Positions 19,668-28,260 of a DNA stretch of 64,000 nt are shown here, one piece after another; the stretch's first letter is position 1, and each line of letters opens with the position of its first letter. A program made the translations under genes and the position numbers. The notes beneath the pieces are model-generated. The model worked only from the letters and a program-made list of their open reading frames with translations. It searched no databases and was not told the DNA's origin. The stretch is from the human T2T-CHM13v2.0 reference genome, Homo sapiens, in assembly GCF_009914755.1 (NCBI RefSeq), contig NC_060930.1; one strand, given 5' to 3'.

Positions 19668-21239
19668 GGTCACGGAGCAGTTTTCTTATCCATCATCTTT
19701 GAATCTTTGTTCTTAATGAAATTCATGCCAGACAAAGGCTCACAATCTAACCTGGTCGGAGAAAGAGGAGGGGGTGAATCAAACACCCTAGGAAACCTTG
19801 CTTTTTCTCTTCGAATCGGCCTCTTTCGCCTTCTGCTGCTGGGCGGTTTTACATTTGTGGGCTGTGAACTACCCGGGGACCAGGACCCCCGTGCTTCATC
19901 TGCAATTGCAGAACCTGGAGAAATAAACTGTCCTGCCCGAGTGATCTGCAGGAGCAAGAATCCAGTAACTCCCATCGCTTTCTGAAAGCAAAGGCAGCTC
20001 TCAACCTGCCCGCTTCCTTCCCACCTGCCACCTAGTGGCCCCCTGCAGAATGACATGGGCGGCAGTGAAGGGCTCCAGTTACCATTCGGCTCTCTTATCT
20101 GATCTTCATAGGGTATTAGCTCGGGAAGGCGCCTTAGAGACGATCTAAGCCAATCGTCTCAATTTACAGCTAAGATAACAGACCTAGAATAAAGGTATAG
20201 AGATAATTAGTGGTAGAGCTAGGACTAGAGCCTAAGACCCTGATGAGGCCTGCAGTGAGGTCCTTCTGTGTTCTCTCACTCAACCATTCAATCAACTTTA
20301 GCTATCTGCCTTACATGCAGAGTCCAAGGCTGTGCACTGCACTGCAGACGAAAGGCCCTGTCGCTATCCTTAGGAGCTTCCTGAGAGGAAGGTGGGCATG
20401 CAGAAAGACCATTACATAAAATATATCTTATTTTACATTGCATACAATGATTGCTCTATAGGAGGTAAAAATGAGGGCCAAGAGAAGCTGCCGCCAGCCT
20501 GCCTGGAGCCAGGGAAGGCTTCCCTGAGGGGTGGTGTTGGGGTGAACCTCAGGAGTACTAGTCTCTCAGGCAGGTAAGGCAGGGCAGGCCCAGGCCCAGT
20601 GGCGCCGTGTGTGGTGGTACACGGGGCAGATACTGAACTGTGGAGTTATTGCCTGAGCGTGACATCAGGGACAGACACGAAGGGGACCAGCAGCTAGGTG
20701 AGGGGCCTTGTGTGTCTGCAAAGGTGTTTGGGCTACACATCACCAAAGAATTATTAGAAGGCGTAGCATCATCAGACATATTGCTTCAATAGATCTCTCT
20801 GGCAATAGTGAGAAAGAAAAATTGGAAGCCAGTGAAACAAGAAGCAAGGAAACATCAGAATGTCACAGCAGCAGTGCAGGCCAGTGTGGGAGATGTGAGC
20901 AGGCAGCGCTGCTGCAGTAACTGGGAAGAGTCTCATATTTACGGTTGGGAAATGAATGCGTCTGGTCTGTGCACCACTGTCCGGAACACAGTCAGGCAAG
21001 CTGGCCGCGGGTAGGACAGGAGAGGAAGGGAGGAGCTGCTCAGTGTGGTTGCGCCGAGGGGCCGGTGCTGTGAGTCAGGTGGGAACGCCTGCAGGCTGCT
21101 GGGTGTGCCTGTGGCTCTGAGAGCAATGCTAGCCACAGATTCACTTTAGTTGAGGAACAAAATCAGCCAGAAAGGGCGAAAGCGGCTGTCAGAATTGACC
21201 ATGCACATTGCGCCCAAGTGGCCATGCCTTTAATCCGTT

Positions 21240-21803
21240 GTCTTCAACAGAAAGTTCCCACAGGAAAGACCTTGGGCAAGGCAGTTCTCAGGAGCTGAAC
21301 AAATCCCTATGGGGGATGACACTTGAAGGCTCTGTGCTCCCAGCAGCTGGGCGACAGTTCTTCCCTGGCAAGGGGATCTGCCCTTCCCAGGCTGGAGTTG
21401 CTGTTTCCTCCATTTACTGTCACAGTTGGGCAAGGGAGTCCCCTGTGGCGCCCAAGTAGATCAGCTGAGTACCGAATACCTTCCTTGCTCCTCCCACAGG
21501 GTGTCAACAGCCCTCTTCCTGCTGATGACCAGGGTGGATCTCCCTTGCCAGGATGGTGACTGTTCTCAACTCACCAAGGAGCCCAAAGTGCCCCACAGCA
21601 GCCATGGCTTACTGCTTAACGGGGCTCTTGCTAAGTCTCAGGTGGAAGTGTTCTCCCTTTGGGATATGGGGCTTCTAATCCTGCAGTCCACAGGCGCAGG
21701 TTTGGGAAGCCCACTCTCCTCAGTGGACTGTTGGAAGTGACAGCCATTTTTGCCTCCACTTCTTGGTTCCCTGTTTCTTGTAGTCTTTTCACTGGGGACA
21801 TGG
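21240..21803 (-). mobile_element. ERV-L internal remnant, integrase tail and dUTPase region
   Basis: Minus-strand peptides SPVKRLQETGNQEVE, TAGLEAPYPKGRTLPPET, GHFGLL, VTILAREIHP and LPCPTVTVNG resemble the recalled HERV-L dUTPase region (SAGLEVLVPEGGTLPPGD, GHFGLL, VTVLAGVIDP, LPCPVIKVNG). Confidence 0.8.
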
Positions 21804-23228
21804 TAAAAGGTGACAACCTGCTAGCTGCCCTCGCTCGCTGTCGGTGCCTCTTCTGCCTCGACGTCCTCTCTCGCCGCGCTTGAGGAGCCCTCTAGTCCGC
21901 CGCTGCACTATGGGAGCCCCTCTCTGGGGCTGGCCGAGGCTGGAGCCGACTCCCTCTGCTTGCAGGAAGGCGTGGACCGACAGGCGCGGGCGGGAACAAG
22001 GGCTGCGCGGGGCGCTCAGCGCGAGTTCCGGGTGGGCGCGGGCTTGGCATGCCCCGCGCTCGGAGCAACCGGCCGGCGCCACCGGCCCTGCACAGTGAAC
22101 AACTTAGCACCCCGGCCAACAGCTGTGGAAGGGGCCCCGGGTCCCCCAGCACTGCCGGCCCGCCCGCGCCGCGCTAGAATTTTCACCGGGACTCAACCGC
22201 CTCCCCGCAGAGCAAGGCTCGGGACCTGCAACCCGCCATGTCTAAGCACCCCCGCGGTGGGCTCCCGCGCGGCCCAAGCCTCCCCGGCAAGTGCCACCCC
22301 CTGCTTCTCGGCGACCGGTCCCATCGACCGCCCAACGGCTGAATAATGCAGGCGGTGACTGGCAGCTCCGCCCGTGGCGCTGGCGGGGGATCCAATTAGG
22401 AAACCCAGCTGGGCTCCTGAATTGGGTGGGGACTTAAACAACTTTCATGTCCCTCTGGAGAATGATATATGCGCTAATCAGCACTCTGTGTCTTCCCAAT
22501 CTGGTAGGGACTTGGAGAACTTTTATGTCTAGCTAAAGGATTGTAAATACACCAATCAGCACTCTGTGTCTAGCTCAGGGATTGTAAACGCACCAATCAG
22601 CATCCTGTCAAAAAATGGACGAATCTGCTCTCTGTAAAACGGACCAATCAGCTCTCTGTAAAACGGACCAATCAGCTCTCTATAAAACAGACCAATCAGC
22701 TCTCTGTAAAATGGACCAATCAGCTCTCTGTAAAATGGGCCAATCAGCAGGATGTGGGTGGGGTCAGATAAGGGAATAAAAGCAGGCTGCCCGACCTGCT
22801 GTTGGTGGCACATCTGAGGAGGTGTGGCTTTGTGCTGTAATAGTTTTCTGCTTTTTTTTTGTGTGTCTTTTTAGATAGATATTGCTGCTGGTGGTTTTTT
22901 GTGTGTGTGTTGGGTTTATGAGCTGTAACAGTTATCGGGAAGGTGTGCAGCTTTGTTCTCGGGGTTTGTGAGGTTGGGAACCCAACGATGGAAGTAAATA
23001 ATTCCAGTAGGCGTAGCTTTAAGAGGTGTAACACTGATTGTGAAGGCCTACAGCTTTGTTCCTTGAAGCTGCAAAACCACTAAACTCAACAGAAAGAAGC
23101 TGTGGGATGCGCCTGGACACCAGAAAAAACAAACTCCCCCTGTGCCTCTTTCAAAAACTGTAATGCTCACCTGTAGGGTCTGGCTGAATGCTTGGGGTCA
23201 GAGCAACAAGACACCAATTCTGGACACA
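21804..23228 (+). mobile_element. Solo LTR12 (ERV9 LTR, LTR12D/E-like)
   Basis: Starts taaaaggtgacaac (consensus tgagaggtgac), ends ccaattctggacaca; GC-rich 5' U3; CCAAT repeat array; AATAAA TATA-equivalent at 22775-22780; 4-bp TSD atgg/gtgg. Confidence 0.95.
22617..22748 (+). repeat. 24-bp CCAAT (NF-Y) tandem array in the LTR12 promoter, about 5.5 units
   Basis: ggaccaatcagctctctgtaaaa(c/t) units at 22617, 22641, 22665, 22689, 22713 and a partial unit at 22737. Confidence 0.95.
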
Positions 23229-25500
23229 GTGGGACCTTAGAAAACACTTTAACTCAGGGTGAACATGAGATGCTGGAGGGTGACTCCGACCTTGTAAGTG
23301 AATGATCTCTGAGCTGGTGCTTCAGCCATTTTCTCACTGGGTGTCAGCTGTTGGGTGTTGCAGAGCATGTGATGTGGCTGTGGATCCCATGGACCTAGCG
23401 CACTCCCATGTGGGAGCGCTGGGATAATGGCGCTTTCTGATTCTCTGGACAGGAACAAACACACTTGGAATATGCTTCTATTCCTAAGAAGTTGACTGCA
23501 TAGGAGCCCAACATCACCAGCTTACCACGTATTGGTCATTCTCTTTGAGGAGCAGGGCCATACTGACGGCTTACATGTGCGCTCTGGTGGAAGTAGGATG
23601 TTTGGTGGCAGCAGGAGCAAAATCAACTCTGGTAAGCCTTCCATGCTGTTGGGTTCTGTGTTACCACGGCTGTCTTACGGGTCTATCGGTGCCCATCCTG
23701 GGAGAGTGGTGGATGAGGCTAACGGCAACTGGTGGAGTCATTCTATGTAGTTGCTTAATTTTTCCTGTGGTGGATGATGTTTGTTGAGTGATAACATGAC
23801 AAGGATTTTCACACTTCGTGGACACTCCAGCCACATGCCCCTTCTCAGACCACCACCTCTTATCTTCCCGTCTTTCTCCCCAAAGGTACCTAAACTGCCT
23901 GGCCAGGTCGTTCCCCACTGCCCATGAGTCTGTATAGACTCCAACCTTGGGCCGCTGTTCTGTTTACATGAGATGGTTACCCAGACCCACTGCCTGAGTG
24001 AGGCAGAAGTGCAGCTGTCATCCATTTGTAGCTTGTGCCCACAGACAAACCAGTCCGAGAGCCTTAAGTGACTTGTATGAGATCCCTCCTATGGCCAAAA
24101 GCAGGAACTGAAGAAGGGGTATTGGTAAAACAGGTGGCAGTGGGCAAATGCACCAATGTGATATTCTGTGGAATGTCCAGAGAGTCCCAATCTTTTCAGA
24201 CAGGGCAGAGATTAGAATTGTGGGCAAAACTGTAAATGAATGTCGTCCATCTCACGTGAAAGCAAATTGTTTCTCTTCCTCTTTCCTGATTGGGATAGAG
24301 AAAACATTTGCTGCATCCTTGGTCACATACCATGTACCTATGGCATTATCACACCACTCTAGCAAAGATTCTACATTTGCTATGGCAGCCACAATGGGGA
24401 TTGCTTCTTGGTTGGGTTTATAGAAGTCAATTGCCATCTTCCAGGACTTGACTGAATTAAATAGCAATATGAAGTCTACCACCACTGCATCCTTTGGCTC
24501 CTGAAGGGTGGCACAAATTTTCACCATCCTCCCCAGGATGGAATACTGTTTTTGACATGCTTGCTTGGCTGGGGGAAGGGCAATAATTCTAGAAGCTTCC
24601 ACTTGGTTTTCTCCACTATGATAGCTCCTACCCTATAGGGCACAGATCCAATGTGGGTGCTGGGCTAATTTCTAGGTATATATATCCCAGTTATACATTT
24701 GAGGACCAGGGAAATGACCCCTGATGGGTCCACAGACCCAGTGGACCTTTGGCGAGGACTCCCTTTATTTTTTGTTCCTGTATGGATGGTTCCCCACTCG
24801 AGAAGGACTGTGATGACACTTCAGTTTCCCCAGATCTCAATTCCAGCTCTAACCCTTCAAATGTTGCATCTTGCTCCTCCTGTGATGTGTGGCCAGCCAC
24901 TCGGTCATTTGGGGAACGGCTGGGGCGATTGTTACGGCACATGGTGGTGCCGGGGACCTGGTCACCTCTCCAGTTGTTGGGTTCCAGGCCCAGGCATCAT
25001 AATGTTTTTGGGGGGTGACAACATTCAGCCGCCTGACCATCCATTCTTGATTTCTTTTGGTAGTGTAAGGTGAATACCGCCCTTGCAGTAGGCAGGGTGG
25101 GCTGACTCCCTGGGCACTCTGGAGCCAAAATGGCCCATCAGAGTTGTGAGTTGTTCTGCACTGGGGCAAACTGGCCTGGCTTTCATAGTCTGCCTCCATC
25201 AGTTATTGCATGTGGGCTGCCACGGGGAGGGTGTGCAGGCTCTAGAGGAGGCCGTGGCAGAAGGTAGGATTTGTAGCAGTTGGGACAAGTTTTTTTTGAA
25301 GTGGACCTAGGTGGCACATGCAGGCTCTTTGGAGACGCATCACAGATAATGAGGGGGGGTTCCTGAGGACGTGAAAGGACAGGGTCAGAGCACAGGTGGA
25401 TGGATTGACCTTCTGTACAAGGAGGGACATCTTTATCTTTCACTGTCACAGAGTGAGCAGAAGGAAAGATAGGGTCCAATGAAGATAAGCATTTTAGGAG
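23229..25500 (-). mobile_element. ERV-L internal remnant (gag end, protease, RT, RNase H, integrase; deleted and frameshifted)
   Basis: ORF 24252-24602 (KQYSILG...WKMAIDFYKPNQ...GTWYVTKDAANVFSIPIRKEEEKQFAFT) matches the class III ERV RT N-terminus; VYTDSWAVGNDLA (RNase H); QQHGRLTRVD (integrase). Confidence 0.88.
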
Positions 25501-26979: not shown

Positions 26980-28260
26980 ACGGCCTGGGAGGACGGTGCG
27001 GCTGGCTTCAGCCCTTGAATGCCCCGCGTCAGTAATAATTAGGGGGTGGGGGGAAACAAAGCGAGGGTGAGTTCTGCTGGGCGCCCGTGGACTCCTAGAG
27101 GTCACTGTCGCACTCTGCTACTCAAGTGGGTTTCCCCAGCCCGTCCAGAGAGGTACTGGTGTGCGGGAGAGGCCAGCAAGACAACCAGGGACAGCTACTC
27201 CGCCCAGGGCCGGCAGCCGCCCCGCCTCGACCACGCCCCCAACCCAAGCCCGGGATCGCCCCTCCCCGACCACGCCCCTCACCCCCGCCCTTCCGGGGCC
27301 GAAAGCGAAAGCGCGCTCGGTCTCTCGGTGCTCGCTCCATCGGGTCTGGCGGGGCTGGCAGCGGCGAGGACCCGGGTCTGGCGCTGTGGGCCGGGAGCCG
27401 TGGGGCGGCATGGAGGGGCTGGTTGTCGCCGCCGGCGGGGACGTCTCCCTGCACAACTTCAGCGCGAGGCTGTGGGAGCAGCTGGTCCACTTCCACGTCA
27501 TGCGGCTGACGGACTCGCTGTTCCTGTGGGTGGGGGCCACGCCGCACCTGCGCAACCTCGCCGTGGCCATGTGCAGCCGCTACGTGAGTGCCTGGCGGCC
27601 GAGGGTGCGGGCGGCTGGGCGGGGGCGCGGGGGCGCCGGGCCTGCGCGAGCTGCAGCCCCCCAGGCTTCTCTTGGGTCCACAGGGCGCCCTACTCCCCCG
27701 AAGCCCACCCGTGGGATGTCTTAGGAAGCCCGCGGGCGCCAGGGCCTGCACCACCTCGGGAGCTGCGCGCGGGCCCCGGGCCCCTCTCCTTGTCCCGCCG
27801 CCCCGCAGCTGCGTCCCGCACTGGTCTCTGTAGGTCAGAATGTCTTGGGTCTGTCCTCGCCACACGCGCGCTGGGGGACGCGTCTGCCTCGTAGCTCTCC
27901 TGCCATCTGGATTTTGAGCACACTGATAATTTTTTGGGGACTCTTGCGTCTCCACTGGATGTCTCAGGCATTTCGCACTAGGCACACATCAGGCTCTCTT
28001 CTCCAAACCTGCTCCCTCCTCCGCCTGACTGGCGCTGTGATGGCAGCTCCATCTTCCTGGCTGTGCGTTCAGAGCCTCGCAGTTGTCTTTGATTCCTCTT
28101 TCTTCACACTCCACGTGCTGAGTCCCTAGGCACTGCCGCCAGTCAAAGCAGACAAAACCCAAGCCGCCCTCACCTTCACCCTGCCGCGCTGGGCCAAGCC
28201 TGGGACATTATCATTTCCCCTCCTCTCCCGCCTTTCCGGCTTTGCATGTCGCCGCCTGGT
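26980..28260. promoter_or_regulatory. PSMG4: PSMG4 CpG-island promoter
   Basis: Very high GC and CpG content; SP/KLF boxes (ccacgccccc at 27231, ccacgcccc at 27270); IRF-like gaaagcgaaagc at 27301-27312. Confidence 0.9.
27410..27583 (+). CDS. PSMG4: Proteasome assembly chaperone 4, coding exon 1
   Basis: Kozak ggcATGg; MEGLVVAAGGDVSLHNFSARLWEQLVHFHVMRLTDSLFLWVGATPHLRNLAVAMCSRY; donor TAC|gtgagt, phase 0. Confidence 0.97.

What the first reader, a model, noticed from the sequence alone, without database searches (positions are those of the whole stretch)
21804..23228. LTR12 with localised, strand-switching hypermutation around a well-preserved promoter core
The strongest anomaly in the window. 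The core (~22500-22795, CCAAT array to AATAAA) is near consensus, but both flanks are heavily mutated with opposite bias. Upstream, plus-strand G is lost (G>A, G>C): the internal repeat gggacttggagaac (22507) appears as gggacttaaacaac (~22429); recalled tgagagg reads taaaagg, gagggag reads gaccgac, gaggggc reads gaacaac; even the left TSD is atgg vs gtgg. CpGs are largely retained, so this is not ordinary methyl-CpG decay. Downstream of the predicted TSS (~22800-23070), plus-strand C is lost (C>T, C>G, some A>G): 22861-22980 has 43 G vs 10 C, and recalled aacactcaccgcgaaggtctgc reads aacagttatcgggaaggtgtgc. G loss returns at ~23070-23160. Inference: cytosine damage on the non-template strand of divergent transcription (R-loop or ssDNA) from a germline-active, unmethylated LTR promoter, with the NF-Y-bound core shielded or under selection. 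Pre-integration APOBEC3 editing predicts only plus-strand G>A, and resection at a central break predicts the opposite polarity, so neither fits well.
Basis: partly seen in the sequence, partly recalled or inferred. Interest (0 to 1): 0.85.

Follow-up and report, generated by a model that had tools for sequence, protein, structure and literature searches.

The report
Lopsidedly mutated retroviral LTR beside PSMG4
An old retroviral promoter remnant just upstream of the human PSMG4 gene kept its core promoter letter-perfect while the DNA on either side picked up unusually many changes, biased to opposite strands, as if long-term transcription outward from the promoter had damaged it.

Summary
Window 21804-23228 (+) is a solo ERV9-type LTR (LTR12C/D/E group) in single-copy host DNA, ending 225 bp before a predicted alternative first exon of PSMG4.

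- **Divergence:** 26.2% of sites downstream of the promoter (22779-23228) carry a base held by 10% or fewer of the other copies (others: median 3.6%, maximum 11.8%). Upstream (21804-22478) the figure is 11.0% (median 3.9%).
- **Strand flip:** upstream losses are mostly from G, downstream mostly from C and A (Fisher p = 3e-6). The switch falls within about 20 bp of the predicted start site.
- **Preserved core:** 22701-22795 has 1 such site in 95, and its 40-mer is identical in 64 other copies.
- **CpG island:** the 5' 600 bp is still a CpG island.
- **Not a subfamily:** no other copy shares these changes.
- **No enzyme signature:** no APOBEC3 or AID sequence context is enriched.

The best reading is transcription-linked damage to the non-template strand at an unmethylated, divergently transcribed LTR promoter (confidence about 0.5). 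Its size is unexplained. CpG-retaining and promoter-annotated sister copies show far weaker effects. Burst versus gradual origin needs ape orthologues.

The parts
21800..21803 (.). Left target-site duplication candidate (ATGG)
   Evidence: Matches 3 of 4 letters of the right-hand GTGG.
21804..23228 (+). Solo LTR of the ERV9 / LTR12 family, of the type with the 5' extension (LTR12C/D/E group); 1425 bp
   Evidence: Aligns over query positions 5-1425 with other genomic copies. Both flanks are single-copy host DNA. Architecture matches print (PMC11853044, PMC8767690).
21804..22400 (+). 5' extension of the LTR, still a CpG island (62 CpG in 21800-22399, o/e 0.78-0.92; host flanks 0.13-0.20)
   Evidence: A ~600-nt 5' extension of LTR12C/D/E is described in PMC8767690.
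21804..22478 (+). Upstream arm with excess divergence biased to loss of plus-strand G (G>A 23.9, G>C 10.8 vs C>T 6.7, C>G 4.9)
   Evidence: 74 private of 674 scored; G-versus-C loss Fisher p = 0.0011.
22479..22700 (+). CCAAT-bearing tandem-repeat enhancer part of U3; poorly alignable
   Evidence: 8 CCAAT motifs lie in 22496-22744. The private share depends on the alignment, 10-22%.
22586..22748 (+). 24-nt CCAAT-bearing tandem array, 6.7 units
   Evidence: This is the most units among 65 panel copies with such an array (others 2.4-4.7).
22701..22795 (+). Intact minimal-promoter stretch, including AATAAAAG at 22775-22782
   Evidence: 1 private site of 95 and 0 of 80 in 22700-22779. The 40-mer 22750-22789 is found exactly in 65 genomic places including this one.
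22796..22815 (+). Predicted U3/R border and start site (about 22805), where divergence jumps
   Evidence: AATAAAAG lies at 22775 and print places the start about 30 nt after it (PMC11853044). Private sites are 2 of 20 in 22780-22799, then 8 of 17 in 22800-22819. The start site is inferred, not measured.
22796..23069 (+). Downstream arm with the strongest loss of plus-strand C and A; peak at 22854-23003, where 23.0 of 39.4 expected C are lost against 3.5 of 31.1 G
23070..23228 (+). Rest of U5: still highly diverged (39 private of 158 scored) but without clear strand bias
23229..23232 (.). Right target-site duplication candidate (GTGG)
23453..23631 (+). Predicted alternative first exon of PSMG4 (model XM_054355411.1), starting 225 bp past the LTR
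   Evidence: RefSeq table read. The canonical PSMG4 start is at 27334.

Best explanation
A solo LTR12C-type LTR inserted in the ape lineage and escaped the DNA methylation that silences most of its family. It has since behaved as an unmethylated CpG-island promoter with transcription running outward in both directions from its CCAAT/AATAAAAG core.

On each side the non-template strand was repeatedly exposed as single-stranded DNA, in transcription bubbles, at paused polymerase or in R-loops. It therefore lost C (to T and G), and downstream also A (to G). Read on the plus strand, this appears as G loss on the left and C/A loss on the right.

The stretch between the two start sites is never melted and is occupied by factors, so it stayed intact.

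Shown here: the element, its bounds, the excess, the flip, its position, the CpG retention and the absence of deaminase motifs. Inferred: the transcription, its two directions, single-strand exposure as the cause, and the timing.
For: 1. The strand bias flips across the promoter: up G 40 / C 17, down G 20 / C 50, Fisher p = 3.2e-6. This is robust to threshold and panel and is seen in independent pairwise alignments (downstream C>T 31.1 vs G>A 10.4, C>G 18.4 vs G>C 3.2, A>G 21.7 vs T>C 7.3 per pair).
2. The boundary is sharp and sits at the start site predicted from print: 0 private of 80 in 22700-22779, then 8 of 17 in 22800-22819.
3. CpGs are kept (63 against a median of about 36), and C next to G is the least-hit context. 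The copy was therefore not methylated in the germline.
4. The changes are private. No other copy shares more than 14 of 114 downstream or 6 of 74 upstream, and no genomic copy exceeds 72% downstream or 78% upstream identity.
5. Six sister copies with an annotated same-strand gene 5' end at or just past the LTR start region are more diverged downstream than 65 others (median 5.4% vs 3.4%, one-sided Mann-Whitney p = 0.013).
6. A predicted PSMG4 transcript starts 225 bp past the LTR. The LTR's own AATAAA/ATTAAA hexamer, present in 46 of 68 other copies, is absent here, so read-through is possible.
7. Print describes a human germline mutational hotspot spanning several hundred bp on both sides of start sites, linked to divergent transcription, polymerase stalling and R-loops, with excess C>T on the coding strand (PMC12658150, abstract and passages). 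LTR12C is the top LTR source of chimeric gene transcripts in oocyte and testis (PMC8767690, passages).
Against: - No expression, start-site, R-loop or methylation data were available, so transcription from this LTR is inferred.
- Other CpG-retaining copies (L002, L035, L019, L012; o/e 0.68-0.79) are only 3.6-5.7% private downstream. Across 68 copies, CpG retention correlates weakly with downstream GC skew (rho 0.25, p = 0.04) and not with private share (rho 0.02).
- The six promoter-annotated copies reach only 3.2-11.8%, and their strand bias is not significant (p = 0.15). The window's 26.2% is therefore not explained by promoter use alone.
- Downstream, G and T are also lost at raised rates (G 0.25, T 0.16 of expected), which points to a strand-neutral component.
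- Upstream, the G-loss is spread evenly over 675 nt rather than decaying away from the core.
- The direction of each change rests on shares in sister copies, not on an outgroup.
- The six-copy test uses few copies.
Confidence: 0.5

Rival explanations
1. One or a few episodic events of single-strand DNA damage produced the clusters. These would resemble kataegis, arising for example at a stalled or restarted replication fork or at an origin firing in this CpG island, rather than from steady transcription. An origin in the core would expose the lagging-strand template, which is the minus strand to the left and the plus strand to the right. That gives the same polarity as observed.
For: The size of the effect: 23.0 of 39.4 expected C are lost in 22854-23003. 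This is far beyond what sister copies with promoter annotation show and is easier to reach in bursts. C>G is frequent (14.8 downstream), as expected from abasic-site bypass. The polarity argument rests on established knowledge of lagging-strand exposure, which is my inference. Print records clusters of concurrent mutations that arise in a single generation in hominid evolution (PMC4864454, abstract and passages).
Against: There is no TC, CC or WRC preference, whereas the published hominid clusters carry the CCC motif (PMC4864454). No larger-scale skew jump is seen around the LTR in 2-kb bins. The switch coincides with the predicted start site to within about 20 bp, which a fork model does not predict. 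A is also lost on the same strand as C.
Confidence: 0.2
2. The copy belongs to an older or rare LTR12 lineage, or is a mosaic made by gene conversion. Under this reading the 'private' bases are lineage differences, not mutations of this copy.
For: Even the poorly alignable repeat part and the upstream arm are 2-3 times more private than the family median. Subfamily could not be assigned with a reference library here.
Against: No genomic copy is closer than 78% upstream or 72% downstream (40 scored of 3563, 379 and 2593 candidates). No panel copy shares more than 14 of 114 or 6 of 74 window-private bases. The core 40-mer is identical to 64 other copies. A lineage difference would not flip strand bias at the start site.
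Confidence: 0.08
3. Editing occurred before integration. APOBEC3 acted on the minus-strand DNA during reverse transcription, with or without RNA editing, and the LTR was fixed already hypermutated.
For: G>A is the largest class upstream (23.9 of 74). Print reports APOBEC3G-type footprints in LTR12C (PMC11853044, passage citing Ito 2020).
Against: It predicts plus-strand G>A only. Here G>C (10.8) and G>T (5.5) are common upstream. Downstream the bias is C>T, C>G and A>G on the plus strand. No GG or GA preference is seen (read on the minus strand: CC 0.20, TC 0.24, all 0.18).
Confidence: 0.07
4. The differences are an assembly error, or a haplotype private to the CHM13 source.
For: Only one assembly could be read. 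Part of the downstream arm is T- and TG-rich low-complexity sequence.
Against: The differences are substitutions spread over 1.1 kb with a coherent spectrum. The flanks and core are normal. The assembly's own soft-mask treats only the core as repeat, consistent with real divergence.
Confidence: 0.05

Closest known systems
Germline mutational hotspot at human transcription start sites (PMC12658150; abstract and passages read)
   Same: It spans several hundred bp on both sides of a start site. It is linked in print to divergent transcription, polymerase stalling and R-loops. Print reports excess C>T on the coding strand and a deficit of CpG>TpG because the CpG island is unmethylated.
   Different: That is a statistical excess of rare variants averaged over genes. 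This is one locus with fixed changes at 26% of scored sites downstream, far above six promoter-annotated sister copies (3.2-11.8%). The start site here is predicted, not measured.
GC-skewed, R-loop-forming unmethylated CpG-island promoters (Ginno et al. 2012; only its title seen, in the reference list of PMC12658150; content recalled)
   Same: An unmethylated CpG island with positive GC skew just downstream of the start site: +0.62 at 22860-22979.
   Different: Here the skew demonstrably arose by change from a C-rich state. Sister copies have a downstream skew of about -0.20 to +0.04, against +0.19 in the window. The CpG island lies upstream of the start site, inside a retroviral LTR.
APOBEC3 footprints in LTR12C/D, including an unexplained excess of G-to-A on the negative strand (PMC11853044 passage, citing Ito 2020 and Anwar 2013; Anwar 2013 is not held)
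   Same: Same family. Plus-strand C>T (that is, negative-strand G>A) dominates the downstream arm.
   Different: No APOBEC3 context is enriched, transversions are frequent, and the bias flips at the promoter. In 65 other copies the composition-corrected asymmetry is weak (downstream C>G/G>C 1.5, p = 0.03; the rest not significant).
APOBEC3G-type clustered mutations in hominid evolution (PMC4864454; abstract and passages read)
   Same: Clusters of C- or G-coordinated changes, enriched in transcribed regions and regulatory elements.
   Different: Those clusters carry the CCC motif. Here C after C is the least-hit context downstream (0.28 vs 0.39 overall).
LTR12C solo LTRs used as germline and alternative gene promoters (PMC8767690, PMC11853044)
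   Same: A 5' extension, CCAAT/NF-Y repeats, an AATAAAAG box, and a position just upstream of a host gene exon.
   Different: PSMG4 is not among the loci of Table 1 of PMC11853044. No held paper has both LTR12 and PSMG4. Print describes the family as highly CpG-methylated, and this copy kept its CpGs.

Membership tests
ERV9 LTR (LTR12 family) | Homology over its length to the multi-thousand-copy family | tested here: met
   hits over query 5-1425, 3563 first-look candidates; the core 40-mer occurs in 1872 places at 3 or fewer mismatches, 65 of them exact, and 0 in the reversed-pattern control.
ERV9 LTR (LTR12 family) | U3 enhancer of tandem repeats carrying CCAAT (NF-Y) motifs (PMC11853044, PMC8767690) | tested here: met
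   8 CCAAT motifs in 22496-22744. Tandem array 22586-22748. The 41-nt unit of print was not seen as such in the window; its best array has a 24-nt period.
ERV9 LTR (LTR12 family) | AATAAAA box about 30 nt before the start site, within a minimal promoter of -70 to +6 (PMC11853044) | tested here: met
   AATAAAAG at 22775. The surrounding 95 nt are family-typical.
ERV9 LTR (LTR12 family) | Start-site inverted repeat GCCANNNNTGGC (PMC11853044) | tested here: not met
   No match inside the LTR. However, only 11 of 56 other copies with the box have it exactly, so it is a weak criterion.
ERV9 LTR (LTR12 family) | 72-bp repeats in U5 (PMC11853044) | tested here: inconclusive
   Tandem Repeats Finder reports no array in 22800-23228. 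At 70% identity to sister copies, such repeats would fall below its threshold.
ERV9 LTR (LTR12 family) | LTR termini TG...CA and a short target-site duplication | tested here: inconclusive
   The window starts TA (61 of 68 others start TG, 6 start TA) and ends CA (55 of 68). The flanking ATGG and GTGG agree at 3 of 4 letters.
LTR12C/D/E subgroup | About 600-nt 5' extension (PMC8767690) | tested here: met
   21804-22478 aligns with the 5' part of the 1.3-1.7 kb copies.
LTR12C/D/E subgroup | Assignment to C, D or E by a curated repeat library | not testable with these tools
   No repeat library or family names are available here. Two hits lie by genes that Table 1 of PMC11853044 links to LTR12C (LINC01194, SCIN), but no lift-over was possible.
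Transcription-start-site germline hotspot | Excess changes on both sides of a start site, with coding-strand C>T excess | tested here: met
   relative to a start site predicted from sequence.
Transcription-start-site germline hotspot | Actual initiation, divergent transcription and R-loops in germline or early embryo | not testable with these tools
   No expression or R-loop data are available. Only a predicted transcript starting 225 bp past the LTR was seen.
APOBEC3 editing / kataegis | TC (A3A/B/F) or CC (A3G) context of the mutated C | tested here: not met
   Downstream TC 0.46, CC 0.28, all 0.39. Upstream TC 0.24, CC 0.20, all 0.18.
APOBEC3 editing / kataegis | For pre-integration editing: plus-strand G>A only | tested here: not met
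   G>C 10.8 and G>T 5.5 upstream. Downstream C>T 28.9 and C>G 14.8.
AID-type hypermutation | WRC hotspot preferred over SYC coldspot | tested here: not met
   Downstream WRC 0.36 vs SYC 0.36 (Fisher p = 1.0). Upstream 0.16 vs 0.22.

The most novel reading that the evidence does not exclude
This would be a retroviral promoter caught turning into a host-style, GC-skewed CpG-island promoter by a self-reinforcing mutational ratchet. Transcription exposes the non-template strand, C is lost, the strand becomes G-rich, R-loops form more readily, and exposure grows. Because sister copies give the starting state, this single dated insertion would record the direction, spectrum and rate (several-fold or more above its family) of start-site mutagenesis over millions of years. 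It would show that promoter GC skew is made by mutation rather than by selection. The same burst in the 5' extension may have removed repressor binding and so caused the escape from methylation.
Probability: 0.2. Interest if true: 0.75.

Novelty: new member of a known kind. Interest (0 to 1): 0.5.

Why it matters
Start-site mutagenesis in the human germline has been inferred from averages over thousands of genes. Here a dated insertion with dozens of sister copies gives the starting sequence. One locus can therefore show which bases changed, on which strand, and where the process begins and ends relative to the promoter. If ape orthologues confirm gradual accumulation, it becomes a natural experiment on how promoters acquire GC skew and how an LTR becomes a host CpG-island promoter. 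If they show a burst, it documents a heritable hypermutation event without a deaminase signature. For annotation, only the core of this LTR is recognised as repeat in the assembly's mask. The element, and its possible role at PSMG4, is therefore easy to miss.

Tried and rejected
- **Subfamily explanation, rejected.** Separate genome searches with the two arms found nothing closer than 78% and 72%. No panel copy shares the window's private bases.
- **Deaminase contexts, rejected.** 5' and 3' neighbours, TC, CC and WRC/SYC show no enrichment. A after A or T (the polymerase-eta type context, name recalled) is disfavoured for A losses.
- **Misalignment, rejected.** Pairwise global alignments give the same result as the multiple alignments.
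- **Large-scale replication skew, not seen**.
- **Family-wide flip, at most weak.** In 65 other copies only downstream C>G/G>C reaches 1.5 (p = 0.03); the rest are not significant.
- **CpG retention as predictor, weak**.
- **Start-site inverted repeat from print, uninformative.** It is absent here but also absent from 45 of 56 other copies.
- **Dating from divergence, abandoned.** The arms are hypermutated, and the 'private' measure undercounts recurrent CpG transitions. By simple distances the window's own branch is about 0.23 downstream and 0.13 upstream, against about 0.07 and 0.08 for a typical copy (my arithmetic). Age is therefore taken from print for the family.
- **Literature, nothing found for this locus.** No held paper has LTR12 with PSMG4, PSMG4 appeared in none of the 12 top-ranked papers listed when searched with LTR terms, and none has LTR12 with NFU1, LGSN or LINC01511. 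Supplementary tables are closed. Those of PMC8767690 list LTR-driven chimeric transcripts and might name PSMG4.
- **Rows dropped before counts.** L031 and L043 are the window itself. Including L043, 11 loci were duplicates of earlier ones. L053 and L071 were incomplete and L060 was below the length filter. Three copies more than 97% identical to another were dropped only. Alignment columns with fewer than 60% of copies (or fewer than 18 of 29) were not scored.
Full report
**What is there**

Window 21804-23228 (+ strand) is a 1425-bp long terminal repeat. With this stretch as query, the window's own genome gave 3563 first-look candidates. The 40 that were scored gave 77 matches, several spanning query positions 5-1425.

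Both flanks (21230-21803 and 23229-23800) are single-copy. It is therefore a solo LTR in host DNA, bracketed by ATGG and GTGG.

The architecture matches what print gives for the ERV9 LTR family, LTR12:
- a ~600-nt 5' extension found in LTR12C, D and E (PMC8767690, passages)
- CCAAT-bearing tandem repeats
- an AATAAAA box about 30 nt before the start site, within a minimal promoter of -70 to +6 (PMC11853044, passages)

The window has 8 CCAAT motifs between 22496 and 22744, and AATAAAAG at 22775.

No repeat library was available. Two hits lie by genes that Table 1 of PMC11853044 links to LTR12C (LINC01194, SCIN), but I could not lift coordinates. I file it as LTR12C-type (C/D/E group).

**How copies were compared**

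I aligned the window copy with 29 other copies, then with 68. Twenty-six of the 68 were found only through an exact 40-mer of the core, so they were chosen blind to the arms.

For each window position I used only the shares of A, C, G and T among the other copies. A site is 'private' if 10% or fewer of the others hold the window's base. The source base is counted fractionally from those shares. Every other copy was scored the same way as a control.

**The excess**

| Region | Window copy | Other copies |
|---|---|---|
| Whole LTR, 30-copy panel | 211 private of 1365 scored | 30-99 per copy |
| Downstream 22779-23228, 69-copy panel | 114 of 435, 26.2% | median 3.6%, max 11.8% |
| Upstream 21804-22478, 69-copy panel | 74 of 674, 11.0% | median 3.9%, max 15.7% |

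Pairwise global alignments, independent of the multiple alignment, agree. Downstream identity is 0.699 window-versus-others against 0.853 among the others. Upstream it is 0.783 against 0.831.

By simple distance arithmetic on those medians, the window's own branch is about 3 times a typical one downstream and about 1.6 times upstream. The upstream figure is held down because the window lacks the CpG decay that the other copies have.

The assembly's own soft-mask covers only 22502-22604 and 22626-22796 of the LTR. This fits arms too diverged to look repetitive.

**The flip**

- Upstream, losses come from G (40.1) more than from C (16.9); G>A is 23.9 and G>C is 10.8.
- Downstream, losses come from C (50.2) more than from G (20.4); C>T is 28.9, C>G is 14.8, and A>G is 19.6 against T>C 7.8.
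- The 2x2 table (40, 17; 20, 50) gives Fisher p = 3.2e-6. It stays significant at thresholds of 3, 5 and 20%, and with the blind panel alone.
- C loss peaks in 22854-23003, where 23.0 of 39.4 expected C are lost against 3.5 of 31.1 G.
- The interval 22861-22980 now reads 43 G and 10 C.
- Downstream GC skew is +0.19 in the window, against about -0.20 to +0.04 in the 68 others.
- Past 23070 divergence stays high but the bias disappears.
- G and T are also lost at raised rates downstream, so part of the excess is strand-neutral.

**The core**

- 22701-22795 has 1 private site of 95.
- 22700-22779 has 0 of 80; 22780-22799 has 2 of 20; 22800-22819 has 8 of 17.
- The 40-mer 22750-22789 is identical in 64 other genomic places and occurs 1872 times at 3 or fewer mismatches.
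- The jump lies within about 20 bp of the start site predicted from the AATAAAAG box (about 22805).
- The repeat part 22479-22700 cannot be scored reliably: 10% private in one alignment and 22% in the other. Its 24-nt CCAAT array has 6.7 units, the most among 65 copies, which disturbs the alignment.

**CpG island**

The 5' 600 bp hold 62 CpG at o/e 0.78-0.92, while the host flanks are at 0.13-0.20. The upstream arm has 63 CpG against a median of about 36 in 29 others. C followed by G is the least-hit context.

Print describes the family as highly methylated, even in primordial germ cells (PMC11853044, passage). This copy is an exception.

**What it is not**

- **Not a subfamily in the panel.** No copy shares more than 14 of 114 downstream or 6 of 74 upstream private bases. 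Searches with each arm alone found nothing above 72% and 78% identity (40 scored of 379 and of 2593 candidates, so closer copies are unlikely but not excluded).
- **Not APOBEC3 or AID by context.** TC, CC and WRC show no enrichment.
- **Not pre-integration editing.** That predicts plus-strand G>A alone.
- **Not a replication-scale skew jump**.

**Link to transcription**

A predicted PSMG4 transcript (XM_054355411.1) starts at 23453, 225 bp past the LTR. The canonical start is at 27334. The window copy has no AATAAA or ATTAAA downstream of its core, whereas 46 of 68 others have one, so read-through is possible.

Among the 68 other panel copies, three have a same-strand annotated gene 5' end at the LTR start region. 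Three more were found by annotation alone among 69 further places and then fetched.

These six are more diverged downstream than the 65 others (median 5.4% vs 3.4%, one-sided p = 0.013). Their strand bias is not significantly larger (p = 0.15).

Copies that keep their CpGs are not otherwise hypermutated. In 65 other copies, composition-corrected asymmetry is weak. The window copy is therefore an extreme case, not the tip of a clear family trend.

**Interpretation**

The best-supported reading is transcription-linked, non-template-strand mutagenesis at an unmethylated, divergently transcribed LTR promoter. The untranscribed core is spared by occupancy, by never being melted, or by selection.

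This matches a published germline hotspot at start sites (PMC12658150, abstract and passages). It also matches the known use of LTR12C as an oocyte and testis promoter (PMC8767690, passages).

The size of the effect, the strand-neutral component and the lack of any expression data keep confidence near 0.5. The main rival is an episodic single-strand-damage event, possibly replication-linked. It gives the same polarity and explains the size better, but it does not explain why the switch coincides with the start site.

**Age**

Divergence cannot date this copy. From print, LTR12C expanded mainly in Hominidae (PMC8767690, section 7). The family's major expansion ran from after the split of lesser apes until the gorilla divergence, and fixation of new copies ended about 6 million years ago (PMC11853044, passage). 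The intact core gives no sign of greater age than its sisters. Orthologues are needed.

**Limits**

- Only one assembly was read, and there was no outgroup.
- The direction of each change is inferred from sister copies.

Noticed in passing
window 22586-22748: The 24-nt CCAAT-bearing tandem array has 6.7 units. This is the most among 65 panel copies with such an array (others 2.4-4.7), so there are extra NF-Y-type motifs right before the intact promoter.
   Followed up: partly
L083 = G000:C5:1290043-1291049 (-): This is the second most diverged copy (15.7% private upstream, 11.8% downstream). Downstream it has the same bias (from C+A 31.9 vs G+T 14.7) but no flip upstream. The annotated 5' end of lncRNA LINC01511 lies inside it, near its start region.
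   Followed up: partly
L002 = G000:C7:133227900-133229365 (+): It keeps 70 CpG upstream (o/e 0.79), and the 5' end of lncRNA LOC101928782 lies at its start region. Downstream it shows a mild bias in the same direction and 5.7% private sites.
   Followed up: partly
window 22502-22604 and 22626-22796: The assembly's soft-mask marks only these two core stretches of the 1425-bp LTR as repeat. The two arms are unmasked.
   Followed up: yes
window 19874-20168 and 20914-21208: RefSeq functional elements (one silencer, one enhancer from reporter tiling) are both labelled with chromatin state 'PromP'. They lie 0.6-1.9 kb left of the LTR. By my recall that state means a poised or inactive promoter; I did not check this.
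   Followed up: no
window 22779-23228: There is no AATAAA or ATTAAA hexamer anywhere in the R-U5 part. 46 of 68 other copies have one, typically at offset 82 of that part.
   Followed up: partly
65 other LTR12 copies (panel), part downstream of the core: After correction for base composition, plus-strand C>G exceeds G>C 1.5-fold (p = 0.03). C>T/G>A is 1.11 and A>G/T>C is 1.17, neither significant. This may relate to the unexplained negative-strand G-to-A excess reported for LTR12C/D in print (PMC11853044 passage).
   Followed up: partly
L037, L038, L039 (G000:C9 at 79.88, 77.67 and 40.48 Mb): These LTR copies on chromosome 9 gave nearly the same values on every measure and are presumably segmental duplicates. 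In one search, 3 of the 68 other copies were dropped as more than 97% identical twins; the call did not list which.
   Followed up: no
window 23453-23631: The predicted alternative first exon of PSMG4 has its own start codon region (coding 23575-23631) and is followed by gtaagc at 23632. Only a computational model supports it.
   Followed up: no
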